Virus genome (UHGV): UHGV-2002320
DNA from: a virus
Strand: one strand, 5' to 3'
DNA length: 13,111 nucleotides
Positions 1-13,111 of this stretch are shown one piece after another. The position numbers were made by a program, and so were the translations under genes. The notes under the pieces are model-generated. The model ran no database searches, was not told where the DNA came from, and saw only the letters and a list, made by a program, of their open reading frames with translations. The stretch's first letter is position 1. Every line of letters starts with the position of its first letter.

Positions 1-84
1 TATTTCCCACAGCGTCGCAATATTGCACCAAAGCTCCGCGCCCTGATTGACTACGTCAAAGAATGGCGGCAGCAATTGGTTTAA
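1..84 (+). CDS. 3' end of a flanking host gene (C-terminal fragment; the tail ...PKLRALIDYVKEWRQQLV* loosely resembles a LysR-type regulator C-terminus)
   Basis: Open frame 1 runs from the window edge to TAA at 82..84. It lies outside the direct repeats that bound the inserted element. The family guess rests on a short C-terminal motif only. Confidence 0.3.
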   Translation, partial: YFPQRRNIAPKLRALIDYVKEWRQQLV

Positions 85-209
85 ATAGCTGCACCTGCAC
101 TGCCTGATGTCAGAACAGTATTTTGATGAATTGCCAAGGTTACAATGGCACAAATGCGGCACAGGAGGAAACGTGGTGTATTTAAATATGGGGTAACTCT
201 TTGATTTTA

Positions 210-228
210 ATGGTGCCGATAATAGGAG
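210..228. repeat. attR-like core: 19-bp direct repeat of the tRNA-Thr 3' end (ATGGTGCCGATAATAGGAG)
   Basis: Exact match to 13035..13053, which covers the last 18 nt of the tRNA plus 1 nt. Flanking bases differ on both sides (209 vs 13034, 229 vs 13054), so the repeat is sharply delimited. Confidence 0.75.
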
Positions 229-417
229 CAAAACAACATCGTAACCACCTGTATTTTATGGAAGTAATAAAATAAATTTGAAAAATGCCCCCATAAGTGC
301 CCCCTATCTCCACCACGAAGAGGATTCATAAATATTTATAATTTCAGGATACGTTAAACACTTCCCTAATTTTAATTACACCCTCACATTAGAAAATTTA
401 CGATATAATTATGATAA

Positions 418-450
418 CACCAGTCATATTATCATGACTGGTGCTTTTGG
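418..450. terminator. Stem-loop immediately downstream of the protease gene stop; possible bidirectional intrinsic terminator
   Basis: Perfect 10-bp inverted repeat CACCAGTCAT (418..427) / ATGACTGGTG (434..443) with a 6-nt loop. Followed by CTTTTGG on the + strand and by an AT-rich run on the - strand. The protease stop codon is at 451..453. Confidence 0.4.
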
Positions 451-2895
451 TTAAATTTCAATAACATTCTCTATTTCTGTGTCAATTTTTAATAACTGAC
501 TAATTTCATTGTGAACTTCTAGATTATTTTCTTTAGTTTCAATAGAGATAATCAAACTAAATCTTGCAATACTAGATTGCCTATTTTCTTTTTTTAGCTC
601 CTTCCACCATCCACTCACAGGATAAATGGCTATGAACTTTTTGTCAGCTAATTCTAATGCTGTTCCGCTCCAAATGTCGCTATGAATAGACCCTCTATTC
701 CTTAGGGTTGGTCCTAATAACCATTTATTAGCATCACTTTCTCCAGCATCAAACTCTTGGTTTTCTTCTTTAAACTTTTTATTTATTCTTGAAACAAATT
801 CTCCGGACTCTTCACCAGGGCTATTAAAATCAAATCTTAAACCGAAAGATCCATATTTATATTTATTATCCCAACCTCTTTCGCCTGGATTAGGCTCTAC
901 AAAATAAGATAACGTTACTCTTAACTTTACGTCCTCTCCACCAATTTTTTCTAATTCAGAGGAAGGCCATGGTAATGAATAAAGAATCATCTTGTTTAAC
1001 TTGCCTTCAACTGTGTAGGGCTGTATTGAATCTTCGACTATTAAATTAACAGATTGATCACCGCTTGAAATTGCTTTTGCTAAATTAGGGAAACCATAAC
1101 CTGACATTCTTAAAAGAAATTCCACATTCTGCTTTGTACGTAAAGGCTCATGTCTTTCGAGGATTTTCTTTGGCCAGGATGCGCTATGGACAACTAAAGC
1201 TCGGATTGTTTCAGGCCAATAATTTGGATACTGACTCCATAGTTTAGAGATGAAAAAAGCAGCCATACCTGTTGCAGCGCTTGTCTCAGAGAAACTACTA
1301 AAATACTCCCCTTTAGTGAATTCATGAGAAAGTGTTAATAAGCTAAGCTCTTCTAAATTAGCAGAAAAGTTGAGATGTGAATCATAACCAAAATTCCCTC
1401 CTTCAAAAACGACATCCGGCTTAAAAGGTGAATTATTTTTCCATATCCTAGATGTTGTAGATGATGGCCCTAAATCAGTTAGTTCAGCAATAACATCATA
1501 ACCATCTGTTATAACGTTATCTTCACTTGCCCAATATCCAACTGTTAGAGCATTATATGAATTAGCGGGATCTTCAATTGAATAAGTTATATTTGCATCC
1601 GGATAATCAGAAATTAGATTAGGAGGAAGATTGCCTGCAGATAATATAAATAATCTTTTCTCTGGATCGTCAGGACTACCTGAAGCAAGTCTGTCGATTG
1701 CTGCGGACCAACTAGTAGGCATCCCTCTTAAAGTATTTGGAGAGGACACTGCCATCGTAAATATCCGACGTTCTGAGGGTTGTTTGGCTTCTATATTGTA
1801 TATAGCATCAGTGGTAATAGCGCCATAAAGTTGAGGTTCATTTACACCAGTATCAGGTAAAATTTTAGCTGACTCAATAACTCCACTTATCGGCAATTCT
1901 TTAGACTGTATCGCGAATTTAAGATCACCAAATAATGCCAATCCAGCAATACCGGTTCCATGACCTTTTAAATCGCTATTCGCCCACTGAGGTTCGGCTA
2001 CAACTAGTGCATTTTCATTTACAAATGTATTAAGCAGTGGGTGCTGAGAGTTAATACCTGTATCAAGTATGCAAATAGGAATTAATGTATTTAGTTTTCT
2101 ATAAGTTATACCATTAACCCACTGAAAAGCTTCAGCTGGTTTCAAATCAAGAAAATCTACACTCACAGCTTTCGAGGGCCGAACTTCCGAAATAATCTCC
2201 GTCATCTGTTGAAGCAGCATTAACTGATGCATAGAAGCACAGACTATTTTTACAACTCTATCTTTAAAACTAAGTGTGCCTTGTTTAACTGTTATACCCA
2301 ACTGACCACATAGTTGTTCAAATTTATTCAGAAGTATTTCTAGTTCTATATCACTTGAGTCCAGCCATAACTCAAGATCATGTATTTTATAAATATCTTC
2401 AGGGAACTCATCCTGACTAAACCATAAAGCCCGAAAATTGCCATATTCTATATTAGATATGGATTCTATAAATGGTTGATTCTTCGGGTTACCTTTTTTT
2501 GTATTCTCAGTAGCATATTCTTGCAGAATCTTTTCAAGTTTAGAAAAACCGTCTACGGGCACAGAAACGTTTGCCATTGTCATACCATCTATAGTATTAA
2601 CAGACATTATTTTCATCCCATTTGCATCTAAACTTTTTAAAACCATTCGTTCTTTAATTTCTGGATTTTCTTGAAAAGTCATTACTACCTTTTGAGGTTC
2701 ATTCCCTTTTCCTAATAACATCTCCACTGTTTTTTTTCTTTCATTATATATATTTATAGCAGATTCTAAACTATGCCTCACTTTTGCAAAATGGGCATTT
2801 CTGTTAACAGGACTTTTACCCTTTTTCGGGCCCCCTGTAACTGGTTTATAGTCAATAAGCTTCTGTGGTAAGTCGATTTTAATGTGAGCCTTCAT
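451..2895 (-). CDS. Subtilisin-like (S8 family) serine protease, 814 aa, with long N- and C-terminal extensions
   Basis: Catalytic motifs in canonical Asp-His-Asn-Ser order: ICILDTGI (Asp278, codon 2062..2064), GHGTGIAG (His312, 1960..1962), ILSAGN (oxyanion Asn422), SETSAATGMAAF (Ser539, codon 1279..1281). About 270 aa precede the Asp motif and about 270 aa follow the Ser motif. Start lies 18 bp after the ATPase stop with an AGGGA ribosome-binding site. Markedly AT-rich compared with the element core. Confidence 0.85.
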   Translation of the reverse strand: MKAHIKIDLPQKLIDYKPVTGGPKKGKSPVNRNAHFAKVRHSLESAINIYNERKKTVEMLLGKGNEPQKVVMTFQENPEIKERMVLKSLDANGMKIMSVNTIDGMTMANVSVPVDGFSKLEKILQEYATENTKKGNPKNQPFIESISNIEYGNFRALWFSQDEFPEDIYKIHDLELWLDSSDIELEILLNKFEQLCGQLGITVKQGTLSFKDRVVKIVCASMHQLMLLQQMTEIISEVRPSKAVSVDFLDLKPAEAFQWVNGITYRKLNTLIPICILDTGINSQHPLLNTFVNENALVVAEPQWANSDLKGHGTGIAGLALFGDLKFAIQSKELPISGVIESAKILPDTGVNEPQLYGAITTDAIYNIEAKQPSERRIFTMAVSSPNTLRGMPTSWSAAIDRLASGSPDDPEKRLFILSAGNLPPNLISDYPDANITYSIEDPANSYNALTVGYWASEDNVITDGYDVIAELTDLGPSSTTSRIWKNNSPFKPDVVFEGGNFGYDSHLNFSANLEELSLLTLSHEFTKGEYFSSFSETSAATGMAAFFISKLWSQYPNYWPETIRALVVHSASWPKKILERHEPLRTKQNVEFLLRMSGYGFPNLAKAISSGDQSVNLIVEDSIQPYTVEGKLNKMILYSLPWPSSELEKIGGEDVKLRVTLSYFVEPNPGERGWDNKYKYGSFGLRFDFNSPGEESGEFVSRINKKFKEENQEFDAGESDANKWLLGPTLRNRGSIHSDIWSGTALELADKKFIAIYPVSGWWKELKKENRQSSIARFSLIISIETKENNLEVHNEISQLLKIDTEIENVIEI

Positions 2896-2913
2896 AATCC
2901 AGTCCCTATGTAA

Positions 2914-3897
2914 TTATTTATATGCTTTTCTCTCTTCTAAAACCTTTTGAAGGTCTATTTGATCTATTTTCTTTAAATTATTGATAATAGCAAATTTTAT
3001 CGCATCATCACAACTTTTTGAAACCTCTGAATAACTTAGCCCCTCAGCGCTACTCAACAAACTCCCCCACTCTTTTACGTTTAATTCAAAAGAATGATAT
3101 TTTGACTTAATTAATTCAATTAAGTTATCTTTTTCAGGCAAAGAATATTCGATCACATCATCAAACCTACGATATAAAGCACTATCCAGGATTTCTTTAT
3201 GATTCGTCGCACTAATAATCAAACTATCAGAATGATGCTCATCTAATAATTGTAAAAAAGTATTTAAAACACGGCGAATCTCACCTACATCATTATGCAT
3301 GCTTCTTTTTGAACCTATTGTATCGAACTCGTCGAACAAATAGACCCCTCTATTCATATTGATATATTCAAAAATACTTCGTAGTTTAGACGATGTTTCT
3401 CCCATAAATTTCGTTATAAGAGAATCCATTCTTACAGTAAAAAGAGGGAAATGTAATTCATGAGCAACAACGCTTGCCGTTAAAGTTTTACCAGTGCCTG
3501 GTGGACCATATAGTAGTAAATGTCTTCTAGGGACAAGACCATACTGTCTAATTTTAGATGCATTTTTATTCTCTTCTAAAAAACGCAATATCTTACTCCT
3601 GACGTCATTTGAAAGAATGACATCTGAAATTTTATTAGTCGGATGAGAAACAGTAAAAAGATCATTAGAGGAATGATTTATTACAGCAGTACTCGACGAA
3701 AGTACTCGAGGGTAATTGTTCCCTTCGTTAGCTTGTAACTTAGCCTTTTCTACAAGCAATCTCAACTCATCGGCGAATTTTCCATGACCTATCTTTGCTT
3801 CATGAGCAGCAATCTGTAGTACTACAGTCAAAAACTTGCGATCATCGCGTGCGATAAAATTTTTTACTAACGCTTTTAGTTGGTTTGCACTAGCCAT
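2914..3897 (-). CDS. AAA+ ATPase of the classic AAA clade, 327 aa
   Basis: Walker A GPPGTGKT (3484..3507), Walker B VYLFDEFD, sensor-1 ISATN, arginine-finger region SALYRRF. About 120 aa N-domain precedes the ATPase core. AGGA ribosome-binding site 8 nt upstream of the ATG. First gene of a two-gene operon with the protease. Confidence 0.9.
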   Translation of the reverse strand: MASANQLKALVKNFIARDDRKFLTVVLQIAAHEAKIGHGKFADELRLLVEKAKLQANEGNNYPRVLSSSTAVINHSSNDLFTVSHPTNKISDVILSNDVRSKILRFLEENKNASKIRQYGLVPRRHLLLYGPPGTGKTLTASVVAHELHFPLFTVRMDSLITKFMGETSSKLRSIFEYINMNRGVYLFDEFDTIGSKRSMHNDVGEIRRVLNTFLQLLDEHHSDSLIISATNHKEILDSALYRRFDDVIEYSLPEKDNLIELIKSKYHSFELNVKEWGSLLSSAEGLSYSEVSKSCDDAIKFAIINNLKKIDQIDLQKVLEERKAYK

Positions 3898-3948
3898 GAT
3901 TTAGTCCTGGTTTAAAGGCATTTAAAATCGTTTGAAAAGCCCCTCATG

Positions 3949-3974
3949 ATCATATCATTACAGACTTACTTCAA
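3949..3974 (-). promoter_or_regulatory. Candidate sigma70 promoter for the ATPase-protease operon
   Basis: On the minus strand: TTGAAG (-35, + coords 3969..3974) and extended -10 TGaTATGAT (+ coords 3949..3957), about 50 bp upstream of the ATPase ATG. The 14-nt spacer is short, so this is a weak prediction. Confidence 0.25.
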
Positions 3975-4197
3975 TCCAGAAAGCAGCATCGAGCAATTAA
4001 ACAAAATTAGTCAGCGTGCGCAGCCCCGCACGCCTGCCTGCTTCGCTTAACAGACTGGTTTTCATGCATGCCATAAATCGTCTCAGAAGCCACCAAACAA
4101 GGGCTTTCTCGTCAAAAATGGTGCATAAGACTCATGCGTTTTCATGCGCCATAGACATGCACTCATGCGCTCTCAGGCCAGCCAGGGAAAAGGTGTT

Positions 4198-4223
4198 AAA
4201 AATCCCGGTACTCGACCGGGATT
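4198..4223 (-). terminator. Intrinsic terminator downstream of the late (sid/psu/ogr-like) operon
   Basis: 9-bp perfect inverted repeat AATCCCGGT (4201..4209) / ACCGGGATT (4215..4223) with a 5-nt loop. On the minus strand the stem is followed by TTTTTAAC. It sits 20 bp after the Ogr-like stop at 4243. Confidence 0.45.
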
Positions 4224-4242
4224 ACTTGGGCGTTTTTTCTAA

Positions 4243-4524
4243 TCAGACAGGAATCTGCTGACGGCTTGACAGTTTTGACGCGGAGCCATAGCGATTGAGC
4301 GTTTGCTGTTGTTTTACCGGGGTTTGTGATTTGTCTGGTTCCTGTTCATTGCGCCGGGGTTTCATGATTATCTTATCCACACTCTCCAGTGCCGTAAATG
4401 TGCAGGAACATTCCAGATTCTGGCACTGATACCACGAGCGTTTAACTGACGGAGCTTCATAGGCTGCTGTTCTGGCGTGTGCAACTGTACCGCATTCCGG
4501 ACATTTAAGTGCCATTAATATCAC
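4243..4524 (-). CDS. Ogr/Delta-family zinc-finger late transcription activator, 93 aa
   Basis: CPECGTVAHARTAAY...YQCQNLECSCTF matches the Cys-x2-Cys...Cys-x4-Cys signature and surrounding residues of P2 Ogr / P4 Delta (AHART, QCQN, ESV..I.KP). Overlaps the preceding gene by 4 bp (ATGA). Confidence 0.8.
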   Translation of the reverse strand: MILMALKCPECGTVAHARTAAYEAPSVKRSWYQCQNLECSCTFTALESVDKIIMKPRRNEQEPDKSQTPVKQQQTLNRYGSASKLSSRQQIPV

Positions 4525-5072
4525 TCCTGTATATCGTTAATGTCATTCAGGCGTTGCTGAAAACGCAGATGTTGTGCCGGGGTGTAAGAACCCTGGCAAT
4601 CACGAATCATCCCGGGGTCAGGCATCAAACCGGATTCATCCAGGATCTCACGATAATCCCCGGCAATTTCAGGCGGTGTTATTGCCAGCTGGCGAACCAG
4701 AGCACTGCGTAATATACGGGACGCAACGTCAACCCCTCCGCGCCCCTTCAGGAACGGAGCCAGTGCAGATGTCAGGGCTGCCCCATTCGCCTGCATAAAA
4801 TTGCTGAGAGCGGCTTCTGTGCAGGCCTCCATCAGTAAATGCTGCGCGTAAATGCATTCGCGCGCAGCACAGTTAATTTGCCATTTCAGCACATCCAGAC
4901 GTTCCCGCAGTAATTCGAGCTGTCGGGCATAATCTGCTGGTTTTTCTGTGGCAGCGAGGAGAGATGTTATCTGTTGTTCAACGGCTTTTCGGCTCTCACT
5001 ATGTCCGGCCCACAGAATACGGGCATTCCGAAAACTGGTAAGTGCCTGGTCAGGCGTGCCTCGGGCCGTCAT
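4521..5072 (-). CDS. psu: Psu-like protein (polarity suppression / capsid decoration family), 183 aa
   Basis: Size and operon position match P4 Psu. Recognisable similarity to remembered P4 Psu segments (L..LR....V.KWQ.N.AA; G.AL..ALAP.L; TPAQ). Start overlaps the upstream gene stop by 4 bp. Confidence 0.6.
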   Translation of the reverse strand: MTARGTPDQALTSFRNARILWAGHSESRKAVEQQITSLLAATEKPADYARQLELLRERLDVLKWQINCAARECIYAQHLLMEACTEAALSNFMQANGAALTSALAPFLKGRGGVDVASRILRSALVRQLAITPPEIAGDYREILDESGLMPDPGMIRDCQGSYTPAQHLRFQQRLNDINDIQE

Positions 5073-5812
5073 ACTGCTTTCTCCTTCTCAGCGAGTTCCT
5101 GACGAACCTTAATTTTATGCATAGCTGCCGGAGAGAGTTGATTACTGAAATCCAGACGCGCCGCATAATCCGGGGCAACTCCCGCCAGTTTAAACACCGG
5201 GTCCTGCTCAGGCATCGCATCGTTAGCCAGAGCCGGTCTGGTGATATGTTTATGAATAAAGTCTTTCAGCACTGTGTCCGGGTCATTAACTGAATTCACC
5301 ACACCCACAACGGCACTGGCTTCCCGGCCCATTGTGGATTTAAGCAGGCTCAGCGTCTGAATAAGCGCTTTTCCATGCGACTGCATAAAATCTTCCCAGA
5401 TTTGTTTTGCGCGAATATCCACAAGAATATTATGCGCGTGGATATACTTTCCGGCTAATTCTGCAGCTTTCTGCGGCAAAAGTGCATTTTCGCTTTCCTG
5501 AGCCGCCAGCAGCTCATCAAAATCCTCAAGCGTTTCTCGTCCCAGCGCAATTTCCGTGCGCAGTTTTTTCATTTCCTTTGAGACCACGCCCTGACTTTCA
5601 CGAAACAGCGTGCGCCACTCCTCATTCAGTGTGTTCGTCGTGGCTTCCATTTCAGCGCGACGCTGGCGGATTGTCGCAATATTATCCGCTGCCGCTTTCT
5701 GCTGACGACGTGCTTCAAGCCATGCGTTTCTGGCTGTGTTCATGGTTTCCAGTGCCCGCTGCGTTACAGCCGGAAAAGTGGAAAGGTTGTTATTCACTGC
5801 GGTGTTGTTCAT
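5069..5812 (-). CDS. Sid-like (capsid size determination / external scaffold) or Psu-family paralog, 247 aa
   Basis: Size is close to P4 Sid (244 aa) and it is the first gene of the late operon, preceded by TGT-N12-ACA dyads. Strong ribosome-binding site (AGGAG, 5-nt spacing). The assignment rests on position and size, not on motifs. Confidence 0.45.
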   Translation of the reverse strand: MNNTAVNNNLSTFPAVTQRALETMNTARNAWLEARRQQKAAADNIATIRQRRAEMEATTNTLNEEWRTLFRESQGVVSKEMKKLRTEIALGRETLEDFDELLAAQESENALLPQKAAELAGKYIHAHNILVDIRAKQIWEDFMQSHGKALIQTLSLLKSTMGREASAVVGVVNSVNDPDTVLKDFIHKHITRPALANDAMPEQDPVFKLAGVAPDYAARLDFSNQLSPAAMHKIKVRQELAEKEKAV

Positions 5813-6212: not shown

Positions 6213-8885
6213 TTAACCCGGCACCTCGCTGTTGAAGACATAGAGCCTGCGGGGATTCATCTCTGGCGGGCGAATGGTTGTCTGGAGTTTGCCATCAGTG
6301 GAGGGCAGCAGGTATCCACGATCTGCGCACAGACGCGCCACCTTGCGCGGGTCAAATCCCCTGCAGATTTCTTTCCAGCCGGACGGCATGACATAGAACG
6401 TAGTGACAGCTTCCGTGCCCTGCGCGGTACTGCCTTTCTCCACCCTGCGCCAGCCCACCATATTGCCGGGGCGGTTGCGCTCGTCATACCAGTCTGCAAA
6501 GCGGCTGTACTGATTCGCGGTGAAGAAACTGCGAACCTGCTCCAGTGCGGCGATATCTTCCTGATTGGCGGTGTGCCCGCGATCTTTCAGCCATGCGTTC
6601 AGGCAGACGCGGGTTGCCCGCAGTGCTTCACCCTCAGGCCAGCCGGTGATACCCAGACGGGTTGCCAGTTCACCTGCCATCGCCACCAGAGCAAAGCGGT
6701 TCACAGCCCGGCCCACCTGATTGCCTGCATCTTTCGGAGTCAGGGCGGCAGCATATTCCTTCATCAGCGATTTTGCCTGTGCCGTTAGTCCGTTAAGATC
6801 AGCGGTCAGTGCTTTCAGCCACTCCCGGAACGGCGAACCGTAGTAGCAGGACGTGGCCCATTCAAGATGCTCTGCCAGAGCCTTGCCGCTGTCGAAGCCG
6901 TGCAGCTCCTCAAAAACGCCAAACTTCCCGGAATCGCTGGGGATCTGGATCATCCTGACTTCCATCCCGGCAAAAGTACGCTCACCGGCCTTTGCCGCAT
7001 GTTCGGTCAGAGACAACTCGCCAGTTGAAAAGAACAACAGGCGCCACTGCTTACGGGTACGCAGCTCACCGTCCGTACCGGCACGGCCCTTGCCCTGACC
7101 GTTTGCCAGCATGTAGGCGATATTGCCTGCCTCGCGTCCGTCAACTTCCCGGATCTCATCAAGCATCATGGCGGCATCGTTGCGGCGGCTGGCGCATCCC
7201 TCCAGCGCGTTGCCGGTGGCCCGCCATGTCTGCCAGTAGTCAGGCCCGCCGCAGACGGAGGTTGCCGCTTTCATGGTGGTGGTCTTACCGTCTGTCGATT
7301 CCCCTTTGAGGTGGTAGCCGCCGCCGTCCATACCAACCAGCCGTAACAGTGGTGCAGCAAAGGCCAGGCTGACAGCAAATGCCACGCGGGAGTTGCCGGT
7401 ACAGTAGCGGGATACATGCTCCCGCCATTCCTCTGATGTGCCCGACACGCGGAAATCACGCCCCTGCACGGAAGTGGTCTGGAGAATGACACCCTCTGCA
7501 CCTTCACCGCTGACCTCATCCTGCAGGACGTAAACCTGACCATGCCAGCCAGTACGACTGACGCAGGTCACGCGGCGTTCCGGTTTACACAGTGAGATAT
7601 ATTCCATCAGGCGTGCGCGTGCCTCACCGGTGGTGCTGATATAAGACAGCCCGTTAACCAGCAGTACCCGGCGCAGTTCCTCACCACTGCCGCTCAGCAT
7701 TTCCATCGGCATCGCCCAGCGGCGACACTCACCCCACGTATCTTCCCATTCCAGCAGTCGTCCGAAGTTACCGCCATCGGCATCGCAGGTGATTGCCGTC
7801 ACGCGCAGCGGGCTGCATATTTTGACGTTCTGGATCTCCGTCTCACCGTTGCGCTGTACCTGCTTTTCATACCAGAGATATTCCTGGGTAAGACGGAACC
7901 CGTGCGGCAGTTGCGTGCGGCCTTCCCCGCACAGTACCAGACCGTTGCGAAAGGCTTCACGGGCACGGGTAATACCGTGCTCCCGATGAAAGTCATTCCA
8001 GTCAGCCTTAATCTCTCCTGGTGGCAGCGTCATCCAGCCGCCAACAGCTTTTGCCGCCCGTTCAGCAAAGGCTCTGCCGGGATTCTCACCTCCGTCCTGA
8101 AAATCGTTATCACCGGCGATGATAATTTTTACCTCAGGCCAGCGTGCCCGCAGCGACTGCGCTACATTGGGCAGGTTGCCCGCAGATATGGCAGCCACTA
8201 CGCATCCGGCAGTGAGCTGACTTACCGTCAGCGCCGTAGCGTAACCTTCGGTAATCACCACCTGTACCGGTGGTTCAGACGGTAACGGGCTGAGCGACAC
8301 AAACGCGCCTTTCATCGTGCTGCCGGGCAGTATGCTTTTTTCACCCGTCGGGGCGATAAGCTGTGCACCAGTCACGGCTCCGGTGTTGGTCGTGAGTGGT
8401 AACAGCAGGGAACCGGCAGGAAAATCCTTACCGCTGATATGCTGCACGCTTCCGGTCAGAGAGGCCGGGTATCCGGCGAACCCTTTTCCTGTCAGATAGG
8501 CGCTTTCTCCCGTGTGGCTCTCTTTCATCAGCGCCGCCACGGTAAGACCCATGTCGCGTTTAGGGGCTTTTTGTCTGGCAGGCTTAACAGGCAGTTCCTG
8601 CACATCCGGCACATTAAGCACCTGCGCCACCTCCTGCGCAGCCTTTCTGACGCTGTAACCGGTTACGAGCTTAACCAGATCCAGACCGTCACCATTGCCA
8701 CACTGGCTGCAGATCCACGTCCCGCGCCCGTCAAGGTCATCAAGGCGAAAACGATCCTTGCCCCCACATTTCGGGCAGGGACCGTGCCTGCCGTTTTCAG
8801 GTACATCAATACGCAGCATCTGGAGAATAACGGGCCATTTCCCCCGTGCGGCGGCTGAAATCTGCGTAACCGTTTGTATTGTCAT
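6213..8885 (-). CDS. P4 alpha-like primase/helicase, 890 aa (zinc ribbon + TOPRIM + P-loop NTPase)
   Basis: N-terminal zinc ribbon CPKCGG..RFR...CSQCG, TOPRIM-like core (VVITEGYATALT ... IIIAGDNDF), downstream P-loop GESTDGKTTT. Translationally coupled to the upstream gene (ATGA overlap at 8882..8885). GC-rich. Confidence 0.9.
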   Translation of the reverse strand: MTIQTVTQISAAARGKWPVILQMLRIDVPENGRHGPCPKCGGKDRFRLDDLDGRGTWICSQCGNGDGLDLVKLVTGYSVRKAAQEVAQVLNVPDVQELPVKPARQKAPKRDMGLTVAALMKESHTGESAYLTGKGFAGYPASLTGSVQHISGKDFPAGSLLLPLTTNTGAVTGAQLIAPTGEKSILPGSTMKGAFVSLSPLPSEPPVQVVITEGYATALTVSQLTAGCVVAAISAGNLPNVAQSLRARWPEVKIIIAGDNDFQDGGENPGRAFAERAAKAVGGWMTLPPGEIKADWNDFHREHGITRAREAFRNGLVLCGEGRTQLPHGFRLTQEYLWYEKQVQRNGETEIQNVKICSPLRVTAITCDADGGNFGRLLEWEDTWGECRRWAMPMEMLSGSGEELRRVLLVNGLSYISTTGEARARLMEYISLCKPERRVTCVSRTGWHGQVYVLQDEVSGEGAEGVILQTTSVQGRDFRVSGTSEEWREHVSRYCTGNSRVAFAVSLAFAAPLLRLVGMDGGGYHLKGESTDGKTTTMKAATSVCGGPDYWQTWRATGNALEGCASRRNDAAMMLDEIREVDGREAGNIAYMLANGQGKGRAGTDGELRTRKQWRLLFFSTGELSLTEHAAKAGERTFAGMEVRMIQIPSDSGKFGVFEELHGFDSGKALAEHLEWATSCYYGSPFREWLKALTADLNGLTAQAKSLMKEYAAALTPKDAGNQVGRAVNRFALVAMAGELATRLGITGWPEGEALRATRVCLNAWLKDRGHTANQEDIAALEQVRSFFTANQYSRFADWYDERNRPGNMVGWRRVEKGSTAQGTEAVTTFYVMPSGWKEICRGFDPRKVARLCADRGYLLPSTDGKLQTTIRPPEMNPRRLYVFNSEVPG

Positions 8886-9265
8886 ACTTCCCCCTGATAC
8901 AACGTCACACCGGTACTGCAGAAGTCATCAAAGGCCGCCGGAAGCGTGCGGTACATCTCCGCCATCACTTCACAGCCGCGCGCGGTCAGTACCGGCGGCG
9001 CGGTCAGCAGTGACGGCTCCAGCATGTCAGTCAGCAGTGCCAGCGCGGCAGCGGCGCCCTGTGCTTCGCCGTACTCGTTAATCAGTACGCACTCGATATG
9101 CAGCGCAATGGCCATTTCAATACGCTCCACCGTCAGGCTGTGCGGACCATACTGATCACTGCCAGTTTCGTTCAGCATTTTCTGCCGCCATGCTGAAGCA
9201 ATAGCCCGCCGGTAAAGCGCGGTGGTCATTTCTGCCGGGAAAATGGAAACCTGCGGCTGGTTCAT
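8882..9265 (-). CDS. Hypothetical protein, 127 aa, in the replication operon upstream of the primase
   Basis: ORF with ATGA overlaps at both ends (9262..9265 and 8882..8885), indicating operon membership. No motif recognised. Confidence 0.6.
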   Translation of the reverse strand: MNQPQVSIFPAEMTTALYRRAIASAWRQKMLNETGSDQYGPHSLTVERIEMAIALHIECVLINEYGEAQGAAAALALLTDMLEPSLLTAPPVLTARGCEVMAEMYRTLPAAFDDFCSTGVTLYQGEV

Positions 9266-10106: not shown

Positions 10107-10198
10107 CTTCGTTACCTCTTATAACGGTTGGTTAAATGCCCGATTTGTGTTCCCGCACAATCGGGCATTGCTTTTACAAGCGAACTATACTTACAATG

Positions 10199-10238
10199 GT
10201 AATTACCATGTAGTCATCATATTCTAGGGTAATTACCA
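10199..10238. promoter_or_regulatory. Two copies of the self-complementary 10-mer GGTAATTACC spaced 30 bp apart; candidate operators in a divergent promoter region
   Basis: GGTAATTACC at 10199..10208 and 10229..10238, each embedded in the longer direct repeat GGTAATTACCATGT. The second copy overlaps the start codon of the ribbon-helix-helix-like gene. Confidence 0.4.
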
Positions 10239-10411
10239 TGTCAACACCACAAGAGAAACGTTCTCCACCATTCCAAATGCGTCTTACCGACGATTTTAGG
10301 TTGCAACTCGAAAACGAAATGCGCAAAGATGGAGATAGCGCGTTGGCAACTTGGATTAAAAGAATTTTACGCAAAGAACTCCAATCACGCGGGATTGACC
10401 CTAAAGGCTAA
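10238..10411 (+). CDS. Arc/MetJ-type ribbon-helix-helix DNA-binding protein, 57 aa, below the ORF-track cutoff; candidate repressor
   Basis: Manual translation MSTPQEKRSPPFQMRLTDDFRLQLENEMRKDGDSALATWIKRILRKELQSRGIDPKG. The segment FQMRL..DFRLQLENEMRKDGDSALATWIKRIL aligns by eye with the Arc repressor strand-helix-helix (FNLRWPREVLDLVRKVAEENGRSVNSEIYQRV). The only + strand gene in the element. Confidence 0.5.
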   Translation: MSTPQEKRSPPFQMRLTDDFRLQLENEMRKDGDSALATWIKRILRKELQSRGIDPKG

Positions 10412-10443
10412 TCAGTTAAATATTACTAACTATCAATTAAGGC

Positions 10444-10734
10444 TTAGGGAGTAGATGATAATCTATTCCCTTTATTAATTGCTCTTGCCTTATTTCTCAT
10501 CCCCTCAAACTGTTGACCTGAGTTTTCTTCAAACCCATCTCGCCACTTATAATAATCAGCAGCGCGCCATCGTGACATCCGACCTATTTTTATAGGTTTT
10601 GGAAAGCGATTCAGAGAAATCAATCGATAAATCCATTTATCACTTAATAAACAATCGGAAGTAATAAACTTCATATCGATCAGAGAATCCATTGAAGGTC
10701 GTTGCAAAGTAGTATTATCATGTTTAGATAACAT
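10444..10734 (-). CDS. alpA: AlpA-family phage transcriptional regulator (helix-turn-helix), up to 96 aa; true start may be an internal Met
   Basis: The segment SDKWIYRLISLNRFPKPIKIGRMSRWRAADYYKW matches the AlpA signature (..IYRLI..G.FPKP.K.G.R...W...). AT-rich. Confidence 0.7.
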   Translation of the reverse strand: MLSKHDNTTLQRPSMDSLIDMKFITSDCLLSDKWIYRLISLNRFPKPIKIGRMSRWRAADYYKWRDGFEENSGQQFEGMRNKARAINKGNRLSSTP

Positions 10735-10859
10735 TCATCATTCTCCGTTTATCTAAGTCTATTGGCTTCAACACGGAAAATTAAAACATAGGTTATAAAT
10801 GAGAAAAATGTGACTAATGAAAAAAATTCAAAATCATTAGCCACAACAATTGTTAATAT

Positions 10860-11684
10860 TTAGTTAAACTTAATGTTTTTCATGCAACTACGTAGCAAAC
10901 TAACAACAGTATCATAGCTCAAAGGCGGTTCTCCGGTCTTAGGCCAGAACTCACTGGCATGTTGAAAAAGATAATCAGCTATCGCTGCTGGACTCTCTCT
11001 TCTTAGCCTCATATCACGATGATAGAGCGAAATAATAGCCATGAGTATTTCAGCTCGAGGAACAGCATGTTTTTGTTTTTGCGCCTCAGATTGTGATTTA
11101 TATTTATTGGCGTTTTTTATCCGCTTTTGTTCGCATAAGACTATATCAATGAATTTTTGAATCTGTACCTTTGTAATCCACAAAACCTCAAAAAGATAAT
11201 AATTTTCTTTTTCATCATAATTTACATAAAGAATTACCTTACAATTTATATTAGGCGTACCCGCCAGTAGAAAATGAATAGGCCAGGAATCCGGTTGCCC
11301 CTCATGCTTAACTAACAGATCTTTATATTCATAATCAACAGCCCATAAACCGGATATGAAGCATCGAATAAAACCATTTTTATCAATTAAATTATCTTCA
11401 TCAGGGATTCTTATAGAACTTAAGTCTGACAACATAATATTGCCATTTCTATCTCGTGGTAAATATTTCAGATTAGATAAGAACTCATCCATTTGACCAT
11501 CAATCTTCAAACCACATGAAACATCATACTCATCATCATGGAATTCCATGCATAGCTCTACATCTCGTTCTCTGGCAAACCAGAGTATATCCTTTTCACT
11601 ACAACCAATTTTTTCTGAAGCTTCATCCAACTGGTAGTAATCTCTGAGCAGAGAATCAGTATTATTAATTTTTAAAATATTCAT
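10860..11684 (-). CDS. Hypothetical protein, 274 aa, AT-rich orphan cargo gene directly downstream of the integrase
   Basis: Long ORF whose ATG overlaps the integrase stop (ATGA at 11681..11684). Composition is strongly AT-biased compared with the element core. No catalytic or binding motif recognised. Confidence 0.7.
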   Translation of the reverse strand: MNILKINNTDSLLRDYYQLDEASEKIGCSEKDILWFARERDVELCMEFHDDEYDVSCGLKIDGQMDEFLSNLKYLPRDRNGNIMLSDLSSIRIPDEDNLIDKNGFIRCFISGLWAVDYEYKDLLVKHEGQPDSWPIHFLLAGTPNINCKVILYVNYDEKENYYLFEVLWITKVQIQKFIDIVLCEQKRIKNANKYKSQSEAQKQKHAVPRAEILMAIISLYHRDMRLRRESPAAIADYLFQHASEFWPKTGEPPLSYDTVVSLLRSCMKNIKFN

Positions 11685-12868
11685 TTATGAGTACCAATTT
11701 GCTCAGATAAATAATTAGCATACCATTGCATCATTTCTCTTCTCCCTTCGAGATATTGGGCATGGTTATAAATTCCACGAATAGAGTTTTTGTCCGAATG
11801 AGCAAGCTGGGTTTCAATCCAAGCGCTGTTAAATCCTTTCTCATGTAGGATTGTACTCATCGTATGCCTGAAACCATGCCCCGTAACACGCCCTGCATAT
11901 CCAATACGTTTAAACACCTGATTAATGCTTGCTTCACTCATAAATTTGCTGGGATCGTTGCGTCCAGGGAACATCAGCGGGTAGTTCCCAGTTAGTTCTT
12001 TCAAACTTTTGAGATGGGATAATGCTTGTTTTGACAACGGGACAATATGGCTCCTACGCATTTTCATACGTTCTTTTGGGATCTCCCACACCGCATTATC
12101 AAAATCCACCTCTCGCCACTCACCTGCTCGTAGTTCTCCAGTTCGTAGACCTGTCAGGATAAGTAAATGCGCCCCCAACAATACAATTGGACTTCCTGAA
12201 TAAGAATTAAGGGCATTAAAGAACTCCGGTAGTTCGTTGGCTTTGAGGAATGGATAGTGGACTGCTTCATGTCCTTGCATCGCACTGGCAAGATCCGGTG
12301 CCGGATTGTAGATTGCCCTACCCGTTACGATGGCATAGCGAAAAACTTCACCGCATCGCTGACGGACTTTCTTCGCTTTCTCCATAGCGCCTCGAGCTTC
12401 TATCAACCTCAGAACTTCAAGCAGTTCAAGGGGCTGAATATCAGCTATAGGTCTGTGCCCAATATGCGGGAAAATGTCTTTCTCGAATGCCTCAATGATG
12501 TCGGAAGCATAGCCCTCAGACCATTTGGGTGATTTCATTTTGTGCCACTCTAACGCCACTTCTCTGAATGGGTTAAGTGTCTCACTCGCTGCATTTAAAG
12601 CCTGCTTTTTGGCTTTTTTGACTTCGCCGGGATCTTCACCTGCTGCGAGTAGTTTCTTCGCGTCTTCTCGTTTTTGTCTGGCATCAGCAAGTGTGACTGT
12701 TGGATAAACACCAAAGGACAATCGTTTCTCTTTACCAGCAAAACGGTATTTCATACGCCAGTAACGCGAGCCATTAGGTTCGACCTGAAGGTATAGGCCA
12801 CCTCCATCAAACAGCTTGTAGCTCTTCTCTTTTCCTTTCGCAGCTTCAACCTTGCGGGCATTCAGCAT
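11681..12868 (-). CDS. int: P4-type tyrosine integrase (about 395 aa from the likely ATG; the ORF track extends to a TTG at 12940)
   Basis: N-terminal region (M)LNARKVEAAKGKEKSYKLFDGGGLYLQVEPNGSRYWRMKYRFAGKEKRLSFGVYP is the hallmark of P4-family integrases. C-terminal catalytic region contains HGFRHT and the LAHSD...YNH segment. Lies next to the tRNA 3' end in the same orientation. Confidence 0.9.
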   Translation of the reverse strand: MLNARKVEAAKGKEKSYKLFDGGGLYLQVEPNGSRYWRMKYRFAGKEKRLSFGVYPTVTLADARQKREDAKKLLAAGEDPGEVKKAKKQALNAASETLNPFREVALEWHKMKSPKWSEGYASDIIEAFEKDIFPHIGHRPIADIQPLELLEVLRLIEARGAMEKAKKVRQRCGEVFRYAIVTGRAIYNPAPDLASAMQGHEAVHYPFLKANELPEFFNALNSYSGSPIVLLGAHLLILTGLRTGELRAGEWREVDFDNAVWEIPKERMKMRRSHIVPLSKQALSHLKSLKELTGNYPLMFPGRNDPSKFMSEASINQVFKRIGYAGRVTGHGFRHTMSTILHEKGFNSAWIETQLAHSDKNSIRGIYNHAQYLEGRREMMQWYANYLSEQIGTHK

Positions 12869-13035
12869 CATTGGGGGCACATTTCCTAGACCGAACAGAA
12901 CATGCCCCTGATTGTGCCCCCAACCGCGTGTTGATTTCAAGAGACAAGGGTTGACCTCAAACGTATGAAAACAACGTAATATATATGTTTTTAAATGATT
13001 TTGTTGATGTGGGTTGACTTGGGAAAACTAGGTGA

Positions 13036-13111
13036 TGGTGCCGATAATAGGAGTCGAACCTACGACCTTCGCATTACGAATGCGCTGCTCTACCAACTGA
13101 GCTATATCGGC
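13036..13111 (-). tRNA. thrW: tRNA-Thr, anticodon CGT, 76 nt with encoded CCA
   Basis: The reverse complement of 13036..13111 folds by eye into a cloverleaf: acceptor GCCGATA, D-arm GCTC/GAGC, anticodon loop TTCGTAA, T-arm GGTTCGA, 3' CCA. From memory it matches the enterobacterial thrW tRNA, a known integration site. Its last 18 nt are duplicated at 211..228. Confidence 0.9.

What the first reader, a model, noticed from the sequence alone, without database searches (positions are those of the whole stretch)
451..3897. AAA ATPase + large S8 subtilase operon in the satellite's variable cargo position: candidate anti-phage defence system
The two genes are tightly linked (18-bp spacer with a ribosome-binding site) and strongly AT-rich relative to the GC-rich core, so they look like recently acquired cargo. 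They sit between the Psu/Ogr-like late operon and the att site, the position where P4-like satellites are reported to carry interchangeable defence cassettes. An AAA ATPase paired with an S8 serine protease is the gene content reported for ietAS. I cannot establish homology without a search, so this may be a divergent member or an unrelated system with convergent content. No nuclease or obvious effector is present, which suggests a proteolytic mechanism.
Basis: partly seen in the sequence, partly recalled or inferred. Interest (0 to 1): 0.85.

Follow-up and report, generated by a model that had tools for sequence, protein, structure and literature searches.

The report
IetAS protease–ATPase defence cassette in satellite
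The two genes are a real, intact member of the already described IetAS family (an AAA+ ATPase that restrains a toxic subtilisin-like protease).

Summary
Observation confirmed. Two co-oriented minus-strand genes (AAA+ ATPase 2914-3897, 327 aa; S8 peptidase 451-2895, 814 aa; 18-bp spacer) at 35% GC lie between the delta/ogr gene and attR of a 12.8-kb P4-like satellite. The satellite is integrated at tRNA-Thr in E. coli and its core is 55.5% GC. Both proteins match the PADLOC IetA and IetS profiles over essentially their full length (1.5e-79; 4.3e-45). They are 45% and about 35% identical to the AAA/S8 pair of a pTiC58-sized Agrobacterium Ti plasmid. In 74 of 74 related loci from many phyla an IetA homologue sits directly upstream of the IetS homologue, while the other neighbours vary (restriction-modification genes, integrases). 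Near-identical satellites carry PRTase+DprA in the same slot, so the swapped cargo is 228-4017. Rousset et al. 2022 already list an "AAA | Peptidase_S8, similar to ietAS" cluster in P4 hotspots, but that cluster is only 33% and 24% identical to this pair. This is therefore a new, divergent member of a known kind, and the NCBIfam equivalog cut-offs are not met. The most likely mechanism is a toxin-antitoxin-like abortive-infection module, taken from published work on relatives. How IetA controls IetS is unknown for the whole family. The "recently acquired" part is not supported, because the cassette co-diverged with the satellite backbone. Interest is low to moderate.

The parts
228..4017 (.). 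Swappable cargo segment of the satellite hotspot (whole cassette with its own upstream and downstream non-coding DNA)
   Evidence: BLASTN against the E. coli LR-25 satellite: shared flanks 1-227 (99.6%) and 4018-5200 (98.3%), with PRTase+DprA in between instead. GC about 35%.
3898..4017 (-). Cassette-specific upstream region, presumed to hold the cassette's own promoter and the RBS (AGGA 8 nt before the ATG). The promoter is not pinpointed.
   Evidence: Sequence read. The consensus scan found no sigma-70-like site here. Two terminator-like hairpins lie between delta and this region, which argues for independent transcription.
2914..3897 (-). ietA: classic-clade AAA+ ATPase, 327 aa (Walker A K137, Walker B D189/E190, pore loop KFMG 163-166, sensor N232, R243/R244), with a conserved helical N-terminal domain of about 1-55
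   Evidence: PADLOC IetA 1.5e-79. Pfam AAA 7.9e-30. PDB best matches are Cdc48/p97/NSF/PAN. Motifs. Alignment with homologues. dN/dS 0.033.
2896..2913 (-). 18-bp intergenic spacer with a purine-rich RBS-like GGGA/GGA stretch, indicating operon coupling
   Evidence: In related loci the IetA-IetS gap is typically 15-100 bp.
451..2895 (-). ietS: cytoplasmic S8 subtilase, 814 aa. Layout: long helix 32-61, two ferredoxin-like modules (about 69-151 and 171-240), S8 catalytic domain about 270-605 (D278, H312, N422, S539), and a conserved C-terminal beta-rich domain about 610-800 (invariant GSIHSD 735-740 and GWW 762-764).
418..443 (-). 10-bp-stem hairpin 7 nt after the ietS stop codon, a terminator-like end of the operon
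   Evidence: The scan lists it on the + strand; the stem-loop is palindromic.
4013..4034 (-). GC-rich terminator-like hairpin at the core/cargo junction. Possibly part of the cos region, which is not established.
   Evidence: Junction at 4017/4018. The P2/P4 cos 19-mer is not found with up to 3 mismatches.
210..228 (.). attR: 19-nt perfect copy of the 3' end of tRNA-Thr
   Evidence: the other copy is at 13035-13053. tRNA.
4243..4524 (-). delta/ogr-like late activator, the last core gene before the cargo
   Evidence: Pfam Ogr_Delta 7.2e-16.

Best explanation
This is a two-gene IetAS-family module carried as interchangeable cargo in the psu/delta-to-att hotspot of a P4-like satellite integrated at tRNA-Thr in E. 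coli. IetS is a cytoplasmic subtilisin-like serine protease that acts as the toxic effector. IetA is a hexameric classic-clade AAA+ unfoldase-type ATPase that keeps IetS harmless in uninfected cells, in the manner of an antitoxin. When a phage infects, a phage protein or the disturbance it causes breaks this control. IetS then cleaves cellular and/or phage proteins, and the infected cell stops growing or dies before phage progeny are released (abortive infection). This protects sister cells and the resident satellite. The same toxin-antitoxin behaviour would also stabilise the satellite. What is shown here: the anatomy, family membership, intact catalytic motifs, purifying selection, strictly conserved gene pairing, and mobile or defence-type contexts. 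What is inferred from published work on relatives: the toxin/antitoxin roles, abortive infection and a phage-protein trigger. What is speculative: how IetA restrains IetS. One possibility is that it acts on the pro-domain-like ferredoxin-fold modules that precede the catalytic domain.
For: Family membership: PADLOC IetA and IetS match full-length. PHROG families phrog_3757 and phrog_3964 match. The pair is 45% (IetA, residues 1-325) and about 35% (IetS, residues 133-813) identical to the AAA/S8 pair of the 214,233-bp Ti plasmid pTi1D1460, which also matches the IetA/IetS profiles.

Obligate pairing: 74 of 74 loci from diverse phyla have IetA directly upstream on the same strand. No third gene is conserved: 142 Pfam families occur among 134 immediate neighbours, and the commonest are type I RM subunits, integrases, ResIII/SNF2 and methyltransferases.

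Mobile and defence contexts: a P4 hotspot here and in K. aerogenes, a P2 gpA-portal hotspot in Serratia, a two-gene islet in Aliivibrio, a position next to an SNF2/DUF4391/methylase cluster and IS21 in Geoalkalibacter, and 448 plasmids. The slot carries other cargo in sister satellites.

Literature: ietAS was first described as a plasmid-stabilising TA pair with a protease toxin and an ATPase antitoxin, it defends against phage, protease activity is required, and ietA mutants could not be constructed (PMC13069673). B. cereus ietAS acts by abortive infection and is triggered by SPbeta YosG (bioRxiv 10.1101/2022.08.27.505566). Mycoplasma AAA/S8 pairs are functional TA systems (PMC8562856). P4 hotspots hold defence systems, including a cluster annotated 'similar to ietAS' (PMC9122126, Table S1).
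Confidence: 0.72

Rival explanations
1. The pair is primarily an addiction (post-segregational killing) module. It exists to stabilise the satellite, which can replicate as a plasmid or excise, and any phage defence is incidental or absent.
For: The founding ietAS was described as a Ti-plasmid stability and incompatibility TA system (as cited in PMC13069673 and PMC8562856). This pair is closest to the Ti-plasmid type. 448 plasmids carry full-length relatives, 321 of them conjugative. The cassette has stayed with this satellite lineage through about 8% nucleotide divergence.
Against: The slot is the documented P4 defence hotspot and is swapped for other defence-type cargo in sister elements (PMC9122126, PMC13586616). 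Relatives sit beside RM systems and in two-gene chromosomal islets where nothing needs stabilising. Homologous ietAS systems protect against phage experimentally (PMC13069673; bioRxiv 10.1101/2022.08.27.505566). The two roles are not mutually exclusive.
Confidence: 0.15
2. IetA and IetS form a two-component ATP-dependent protease, analogous to PAN-proteasome or ClpXP. It directly unfolds and degrades specific phage proteins, so infection is blocked without killing the host.
For: IetA has a canonical aromatic pore loop and is most similar to substrate-threading unfoldases. The pairing is strict. IetS carries large extra domains that could dock on an ATPase ring.
Against: S8 subtilases are monomeric open-cleft enzymes, not chambered proteases. 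Published data on relatives show that IetS is toxic without active IetA and that defence has abortive-infection behaviour (PMC13069673, PMC8562856, bioRxiv 10.1101/2022.08.27.505566).
Confidence: 0.08
3. The pair is a housekeeping or secretion-linked protease maturation pair, or a protease that serves the satellite's own capsid or helper-exploitation programme.
For: Some database records label homologues as 'type VII secretion-associated serine protease mycosin'. The genes lie next to the sid/psu/delta helper-subversion operon.
Against: The mycosin model scores only 26.9 bits against a cut-off of 278.75. There is no signal peptide or membrane segment. There is no conserved synteny with secretion genes. 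The cassette is absent from most sister satellites (12 of 5426 E. coli genomes carry it) and is present in non-satellite contexts. Terminator-like hairpins separate it from the delta operon.
Confidence: 0.03

Closest known systems
IetA/IetS of Agrobacterium Ti plasmids (the pTiC58-type plasmid stability TA system of Yamamoto et al. 2009, as cited in PMC8562856 and PMC13069673)
   Same: Same two-gene order (a 328-aa AAA followed by an 836-aa S8) and the same domain layout. IetA is 45% identical over its full length and IetS about 35% over residues 133-813. Both pairs have the same best PADLOC profiles, PDLC02196 and PDLC02198.
   Different: The carrier differs: a P4-like satellite hotspot in Enterobacteriaceae rather than a conjugative Ti plasmid. 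The N-terminal 130 residues of IetS align poorly. That the pTi1D1460 pair is the published ietAS locus is my inference, based on plasmid length equal to pTiC58 and C58-type protein accessions; no annotation says so.
ietAS of Gao et al. 2020, the E. coli P2-hotspot type (AAA/HTH_50 + Peptidase_S8; Rousset 2022 Table S1; NCBIfam IteA/IteS equivalogs)
   Same: An AAA+ upstream of a large S8 protease, carried in a P2/P4 defence hotspot. The AAA module is 32% identical.
   Different: IetA here lacks the C-terminal HTH_50 domain and has a different N-terminal domain. NCBIfam scores are far below the equivalog cut-offs. This is a distinct subfamily.
Rousset 2022 P4-hotspot cluster 72 'AAA | Peptidase_S8 - similar to ietAS' (7 occurrences)
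   Same: Same hotspot of P4-like satellites in E. coli, same gene content and order, and an IetA of the same length (328 aa). Its IetA also matches PADLOC IetA.
   Different: Only 33% (IetA) and about 24% (N-terminal half of IetS) identical. It is an independent acquisition of another subtype.
ietHAS (Liu-DS4; PMC13069673)
   Same: IetA and IetS core. Protease activity is required for defence, and ietA behaves as an antitoxin.
   Different: ietHAS needs a third SNF2-family helicase, IetH. The cargo here (228-4017) holds only the two genes.
Mycoplasma AAA-ATPase/subtilisin-like TA132/133 (PMC8562856)
   Same: Antitoxin AAA upstream of a toxic S8 protease of about 757 aa, with TA behaviour shown experimentally.
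   Different: Chromosomal in Mollicutes. Sequence relationship to this pair was not measured here.

Membership tests
IetAS (PADLOC IetAS / Gao_Iet) | An AAA+ ATPase matching an IetA profile over its full length | tested here: met
   PDLC02196 at 1.5e-79, 266 bits, residues 2-322 against profile positions 2-320 of 374. Three further IetA profiles match at 1e-42 or better.
IetAS (PADLOC IetAS / Gao_Iet) | A large S8 peptidase matching an IetS profile beyond the catalytic domain | tested here: met
   PDLC02198 at 4.3e-45, residues 90-802 against profile positions 77-779 of 795. Five further IetS profiles also match.
IetAS (PADLOC IetAS / Gao_Iet) | The two genes are adjacent and co-oriented, with ietA upstream of ietS | tested here: met
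   18-bp spacer. The same arrangement holds in 74 of 74 related loci.
IetAS (PADLOC IetAS / Gao_Iet) | Catalytically competent ATPase and protease | tested here: met
   K137, D189/E190, N232, R243/R244 and pore loop KFMG in IetA. D278, H312, N422 and S539 in IetS, all invariant or nearly invariant in an 84-sequence alignment.
IetAS (PADLOC IetAS / Gao_Iet) | Equivalog of the reference anti-phage pair (NCBIfam IteA NF042959 and IteS NF042956 trusted cut-offs) | tested here: not met
   IteA 224.2 bits against a cut-off of 510. IteS 47.8 bits against a cut-off of 900. This is a family member but not the same subfamily as the reference pair.
IetAS (PADLOC IetAS / Gao_Iet) | Protects against phage, and the protease is toxic unless the ATPase is present | not testable with these tools
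   Known only from relatives (PMC13069673, PMC8562856, bioRxiv 10.1101/2022.08.27.505566).
P4-like phage satellite | Core gene set: integrase, alpha primase-helicase, psu, delta, sid-like gene and AlpA-like regulator, bounded by att repeats at a tRNA | tested here: met
   Pfam and PHROG hits. RefSeq annotation. A 19-nt att repeat at tRNA-Thr.
P4-like phage satellite | A P2/P4-type cos site next to the hotspot | tested here: inconclusive
   The canonical 19-mer is absent with up to 3 mismatches. There is no DNA match to phage records. A GC-rich hairpin at 4013-4034 sits at the core/cargo junction and could belong to a divergent cos.
P4 defence hotspot cargo (Rousset 2022; Moura de Sousa 2026) | Located between the psu/delta/sid operon and the integrase-distal att site, and replaced by unrelated cargo in near-identical elements | tested here: met
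   LR-25 and other genomes have PRTase+DprA between the same flanks. The hotspot is described in PMC9122126 and PMC13586616.
Type VII secretion mycosin (label seen on some homologues) | Meets the TIGR03921 cut-off; membrane-anchored and exported | tested here: not met
   26.9 bits against a cut-off of 278.75. No hydrophobic segment (maximum KD19 1.07).

The most novel reading that the evidence does not exclude
The large Y4kK_N-type IetS subfamily, to which this pair and the Ti-plasmid founder belong, may be an uncleaved zymogen. Its two ferredoxin-fold, propeptide-like N-terminal modules and conserved C-terminal domain would be handled by the IetA unfoldase through its pore loops. The AAA+ motor would then be the switch of an immune protease: it would hold or reset IetS in uninfected cells and release it when a phage factor stalls or titrates it. 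That would be a new regulatory logic, an unfoldase-gated subtilase, for a defence family whose mechanism is still unknown. This compact E. coli satellite version would be a convenient model for studying it.
Probability: 0.25. Interest if true: 0.6.

Novelty: new member of a known kind. Interest (0 to 1): 0.27.

Why it matters
It adds one more documented case of a P4-like satellite carrying a toxin-antitoxin-type immune module in its hotspot. It also shows that the Ti-plasmid-type IetAS subfamily circulates in enterobacterial satellites, P2-like prophages and hundreds of plasmids. Practically, it provides a small E. coli-native pair (3.8 kb with its own regulatory DNA) from a very widespread subfamily: relatives were found in at least 595 of the one-per-species genomes scanned. 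The pair is always two genes, which makes it a good handle for working out how an AAA+ ATPase controls a subtilase toxin, something still unknown for the family. It does not reveal a new kind of system.

Tried and rejected

3. I looked for a P2/P4 cos site and for DNA similarity of the delta-to-cargo junction to phage records. Nothing was found.

4. Rfam found only the tRNA. No small ORF or RNA was found in 229-450.

5. The consensus promoter scan found no site in the 120 bp upstream of ietA.

6. I looked for a conserved third component by scanning 134 immediate neighbours of related loci against Pfam and PADLOC. None was found.

7. Literature searches for an IetAS mechanism or structure found none in the held library. 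Yamamoto 2009 is not held.

8. The mycosin and housekeeping readings were rejected.

9. My first alignment (A1) used coordinates that dropped the start codon. It was redone as A2.
Full report
**1. What is in the sequence**

The window is E. coli chromosome, 100% identical over 1-4300 to strain MS1665. It carries a 12.8-kb P4-like satellite. The satellite is bounded by a perfect 19-nt direct repeat at 210-228 and 13035-13053; the second copy is the 3' end of tRNA-Thr(CGT) at 13036-13111.

All satellite genes are on the minus strand:
- integrase, 11681-12940
- an orphan 274-aa gene, 10860-11684
- an AlpA-like regulator, 10444-10734
- DUF5375, 8882-9265
- the alpha primase-helicase, 6213-8885
- a Psu-family sid-like gene, 5069-5812
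- psu, 4521-5072
- delta/ogr, 4243-4524

After delta come a hairpin followed by a T-run, and a second GC-rich hairpin at 4013-4034. A 327-aa AAA+ ATPase is at 2914-3897, then an 18-bp spacer with a purine-rich RBS-like stretch, then an 814-aa S8 peptidase at 451-2895. A 10-bp-stem hairpin follows at 418-443, and attR lies about 190 bp further on. GC content is 35.0% in the cassette and 55.5% in the core.

**2. The genes are real and under selection**

Both ORFs have the same lengths as their homologues: 814-818 aa for IetS and 326-332 aa for IetA. Against the K. aerogenes copy of the same satellite, dN/dS is 0.033 for IetA and 0.064 for IetS. That is as constrained as the satellite's alpha gene at 0.034.

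**3. What the two proteins are**

IetA matches four PADLOC IetA profiles. The best is PDLC02196 at 1.5e-79, full-length. IetS matches six IetS profiles. The best is PDLC02198 at 4.3e-45, covering residues 90-802 of 814 against profile positions 77-779 of 795, so the match extends well beyond the catalytic domain. Pfam sees only AAA and Peptidase_S8. PHROGs has dedicated families of unknown function for both proteins.

The NCBIfam equivalogs built for the reference anti-phage pair are hit far below their cut-offs: IteA 224 against 510 bits, and IteS 48 against 900 bits. The pair is therefore in the family but not in the reference subfamily.

The closest named relative I could reach is the AAA/S8 pair of Ti plasmid pTi1D1460. 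That plasmid is 214,233 bp, which to my knowledge is the length of pTiC58. IetA is 45% identical over the full length and IetS about 35% over residues 133-813. That pair has the same best PADLOC profiles.

Two E. coli types were already catalogued in P2/P4 hotspots by Rousset et al. 2022, and both are much more distant from this pair:
- The P2-hotspot type, AAA/HTH_50 + S8, labelled 'ietAS (Gao et al. 2020)'. Its AAA module is 32% identical, and the pair here has no HTH_50 domain.
- P4-hotspot cluster 72, 'AAA | Peptidase_S8, similar to ietAS', with 7 occurrences. It is 33% identical for IetA and about 24% for the N-terminal half of IetS.

**4. Anatomy of the proteins**

IetA is a classic-clade AAA+. 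Its best PDB matches are Cdc48/p97, NSF and PAN. It has:
- Walker A, K137
- Walker B, D189/E190
- sensor-1, N232
- R243/R244
- an aromatic pore-loop, K163-F-M-G166, the hallmark of substrate-threading unfoldases
- a strongly conserved helical N-terminal segment

An AF2 model of IetS (pLDDT 86, pTM 0.73) shows four parts:
- a long helix, 32-61
- two beta-alpha-beta modules, about 69-151 and 171-240
- the S8 domain, about 270-605, with D278, H312, N422 and S539, all invariant or nearly invariant in 84 homologues
- a beta-rich C-terminal domain, about 610-800, as conserved as the catalytic domain, with invariant GSIHSD and GWW motifs

Neither protein has a signal peptide or a hydrophobic segment. 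No solved structure of an IetS-type protein was found.

**5. Context elsewhere**

The family is very large. There are 1403 clusters at E<=1e-5 among the candidates scored. They span Proteobacteria, Firmicutes, Cyanobacteria, Planctomycetes, Acidobacteria, Bacteroidota, Spirochaetes and Actinobacteria.

In all 74 loci with enough upstream DNA, an IetA homologue (37-99% identical) lies directly upstream on the same strand. The other neighbours are not conserved. There are 142 Pfam families among 134 immediate neighbours. The most frequent are type I RM subunits, phage integrases, ResIII/SNF2 helicases and DNA methyltransferases.

Individual contexts examined:
- the same satellite in K. aerogenes (96% amino-acid identity) and in Citrobacter (95%)
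- the gpA-portal hotspot of a P2-like prophage in Serratia (64%)
- a bare two-gene islet between argA and recD in Aliivibrio (48%)
- a position next to SRAP, SNF2, DUF4391 and methylase genes and an IS21 in Geoalkalibacter (39%)
- 448 plasmids, 321 of them conjugative, including 53 Agrobacterium and 211 Klebsiella plasmids

This pattern is the opposite of a housekeeping operon with conserved synteny.

**6. The slot is a swappable cargo position**

Only 12 of 5426 complete E. coli genomes carry this cassette. Strain LR-25 and others have the same host flank and att site (1-227, 99.6%) and the same delta/psu core (4018-5200, 98.3%), but carry a phosphoribosyltransferase plus DprA in between. The exchanged segment is therefore 228-4017. 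It includes 120 bp upstream of ietA, and its junction falls at the GC-rich hairpin at 4013-4034. This is the P4 defence hotspot described by Rousset et al. 2022 (PMC9122126) and Moura de Sousa et al. 2026 (PMC13586616).

The low GC content shows foreign origin but not recent arrival. The K. aerogenes satellite shares the cassette at 91-94% nucleotide identity, inside the 85-95% range of the core genes, and cassette dS is at least that of alpha.

**7. How it most likely works**

The papers I read describe relatives as follows:
- ietAS was first described as a plasmid-stabilising toxin-antitoxin pair with the protease as toxin and the ATPase as antitoxin. It protects against phage. Protease activity is required. 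An ietA mutant could not be constructed. The anti-phage mechanism 'remains unknown' (PMC13069673).
- A B. cereus ietAS behaves as an abortive-infection system and becomes toxic when the SPbeta protein YosG is expressed (bioRxiv 10.1101/2022.08.27.505566).
- Mycoplasma AAA/S8 pairs are functional TA systems (PMC8562856).
- In E. coli, ietAS is often located in integrated elements (bioRxiv 10.1101/2022.08.21.504612).

The anatomy found here fits this picture: a cytoplasmic and intact protease, an intact unfoldase-type ATPase, obligate pairing with no third partner, and mobile or defence contexts. The best explanation is a TA-like abortive-infection module. IetA restrains IetS until a phage cue breaks the restraint. 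IetS then cleaves cellular and/or phage proteins and aborts the infection. Stabilisation of the satellite would be a side benefit.

The anatomy and family membership are shown here. The roles and the abortive outcome are inferred from relatives at 25-45% identity. How IetA acts on IetS is speculative. Possibilities are threading of the pro-domain-like modules, holding IetS in an unfolded or latent state, or acting as the sensor.

**8. Rivals**

- A pure addiction module. This is plausible as a co-function, but the hotspot, the RM neighbours and the chromosomal islets argue for defence.
- A direct ATP-dependent protease that degrades phage proteins without killing the host. The pore loop supports this. 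The published toxicity and abortive-infection behaviour of relatives argue against it.
- A housekeeping, secretion or capsid-processing protease. This is rejected on the mycosin score, the lack of export signals, the lack of synteny, and the patchy presence of the cassette.

**9. Novelty and verdict**

The system is of a known kind in a known kind of place, and standard defence annotators would call it. The facts that are new, though small, are these:
- It is a third, divergent IetAS subtype in E. coli P2/P4 hotspots.
- It is closest to the Ti-plasmid founder type.
- It belongs to a very widespread two-gene subfamily.
- The same subtype occurs in both P4 and P2 hotspots, at 64% identity.

RefSeq labels the two proteins only as 'S8 family peptidase' and 'AAA family ATPase'. 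Interest is low to moderate. Its value lies in offering a compact E. coli-native model for a family whose mechanism is unsolved.

Noticed in passing
window 10860-11684 (-): A 274-aa orphan gene overlaps the integrase stop by 4 bp and sits in a second AT-rich block (35% GC, about 10250-11750). It has no Pfam, PADLOC or PHROG hit. Homologues form only 18 clusters, all Enterobacterales, at 54-94% identity. It is also present in the K. aerogenes copy of the satellite. It could be a second accessory or defence gene in the minor int-proximal hotspot described for P4.
   Followed up: partly
window 229-450: The non-coding stretch between attR and the ietS stop codon is 100% identical (222/222) between the E. 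coli and K. aerogenes satellites, while the rest of the element is 85-95% identical. No ORF of 50 aa or more and no Rfam hit lies here. It contains the operon's terminator hairpin. The cause could be recent recombination or a constrained site, such as part of attP or integrase arm sites.
   Followed up: partly
window 4013-4034 (junction at 4017/4018): A GC-rich hairpin (GGCGTGCGGGGCTGCGCACGCT) lies exactly at the boundary between conserved core and swapped cargo. The canonical P2/P4 cos 19-mer is absent from the window with up to 3 mismatches, so the cos site of this satellite is unassigned. This hairpin region is a candidate.
   Followed up: partly
window 4521-5812; locus L006 7619-8652: There are two Psu-family genes in tandem: a 247-aa sid-like gene and a 183-aa psu, followed by delta. 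The K. aerogenes relative lacks the 183-aa psu altogether (window 4528-5094 has no counterpart) and keeps only the 253-aa Psu-family gene. The helper-subversion operon itself therefore varies between close relatives.
   Followed up: partly
L002/L003 6994-10448 (Serratia marcescens P2-like prophage): A 64%-identical IetA/IetS pair of the same subtype occupies the P2 gpA-portal hotspot. The same subtype is therefore present in both P2 and P4 hotspots, although the divergence is too great to indicate recent P2-P4 exchange.
   Followed up: partly
L009 1907-4127 (E. coli LR-25), the same slot as window 228-4017: The alternative cargo in an otherwise near-identical satellite is a phosphoribosyltransferase plus a DprA-like protein. 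[quoted passage not shown]
   Followed up: no
window 10198-10241: Two perfect copies of the 14-nt sequence GGTAATTACCATGT lie 30 bp apart in the intergenic region upstream of the AlpA-like regulator. Each contains the palindrome GGTAATTACC and looks like an operator.
   Followed up: no
window 1-84: The host gene next to attR is the 3' remnant of a LysR-family regulator, annotated as a pseudogene missing its N-terminus in RefSeq genomes. Different satellites occupy this tRNA-Thr site across E. coli; 3880 of 5426 genomes match part of the 1-4300 query.
   Followed up: no
L005 7442-13420 (Geoalkalibacter): Downstream of a 39%-identical IetAS pair lie SRAP, a 1090-aa SNF2 helicase, DUF4391 and an N6/N4 methyltransferase. 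This is reminiscent of the helicase-containing ietHAS variant, or it may be a separate RM-like system. I did not determine which.
   Followed up: no
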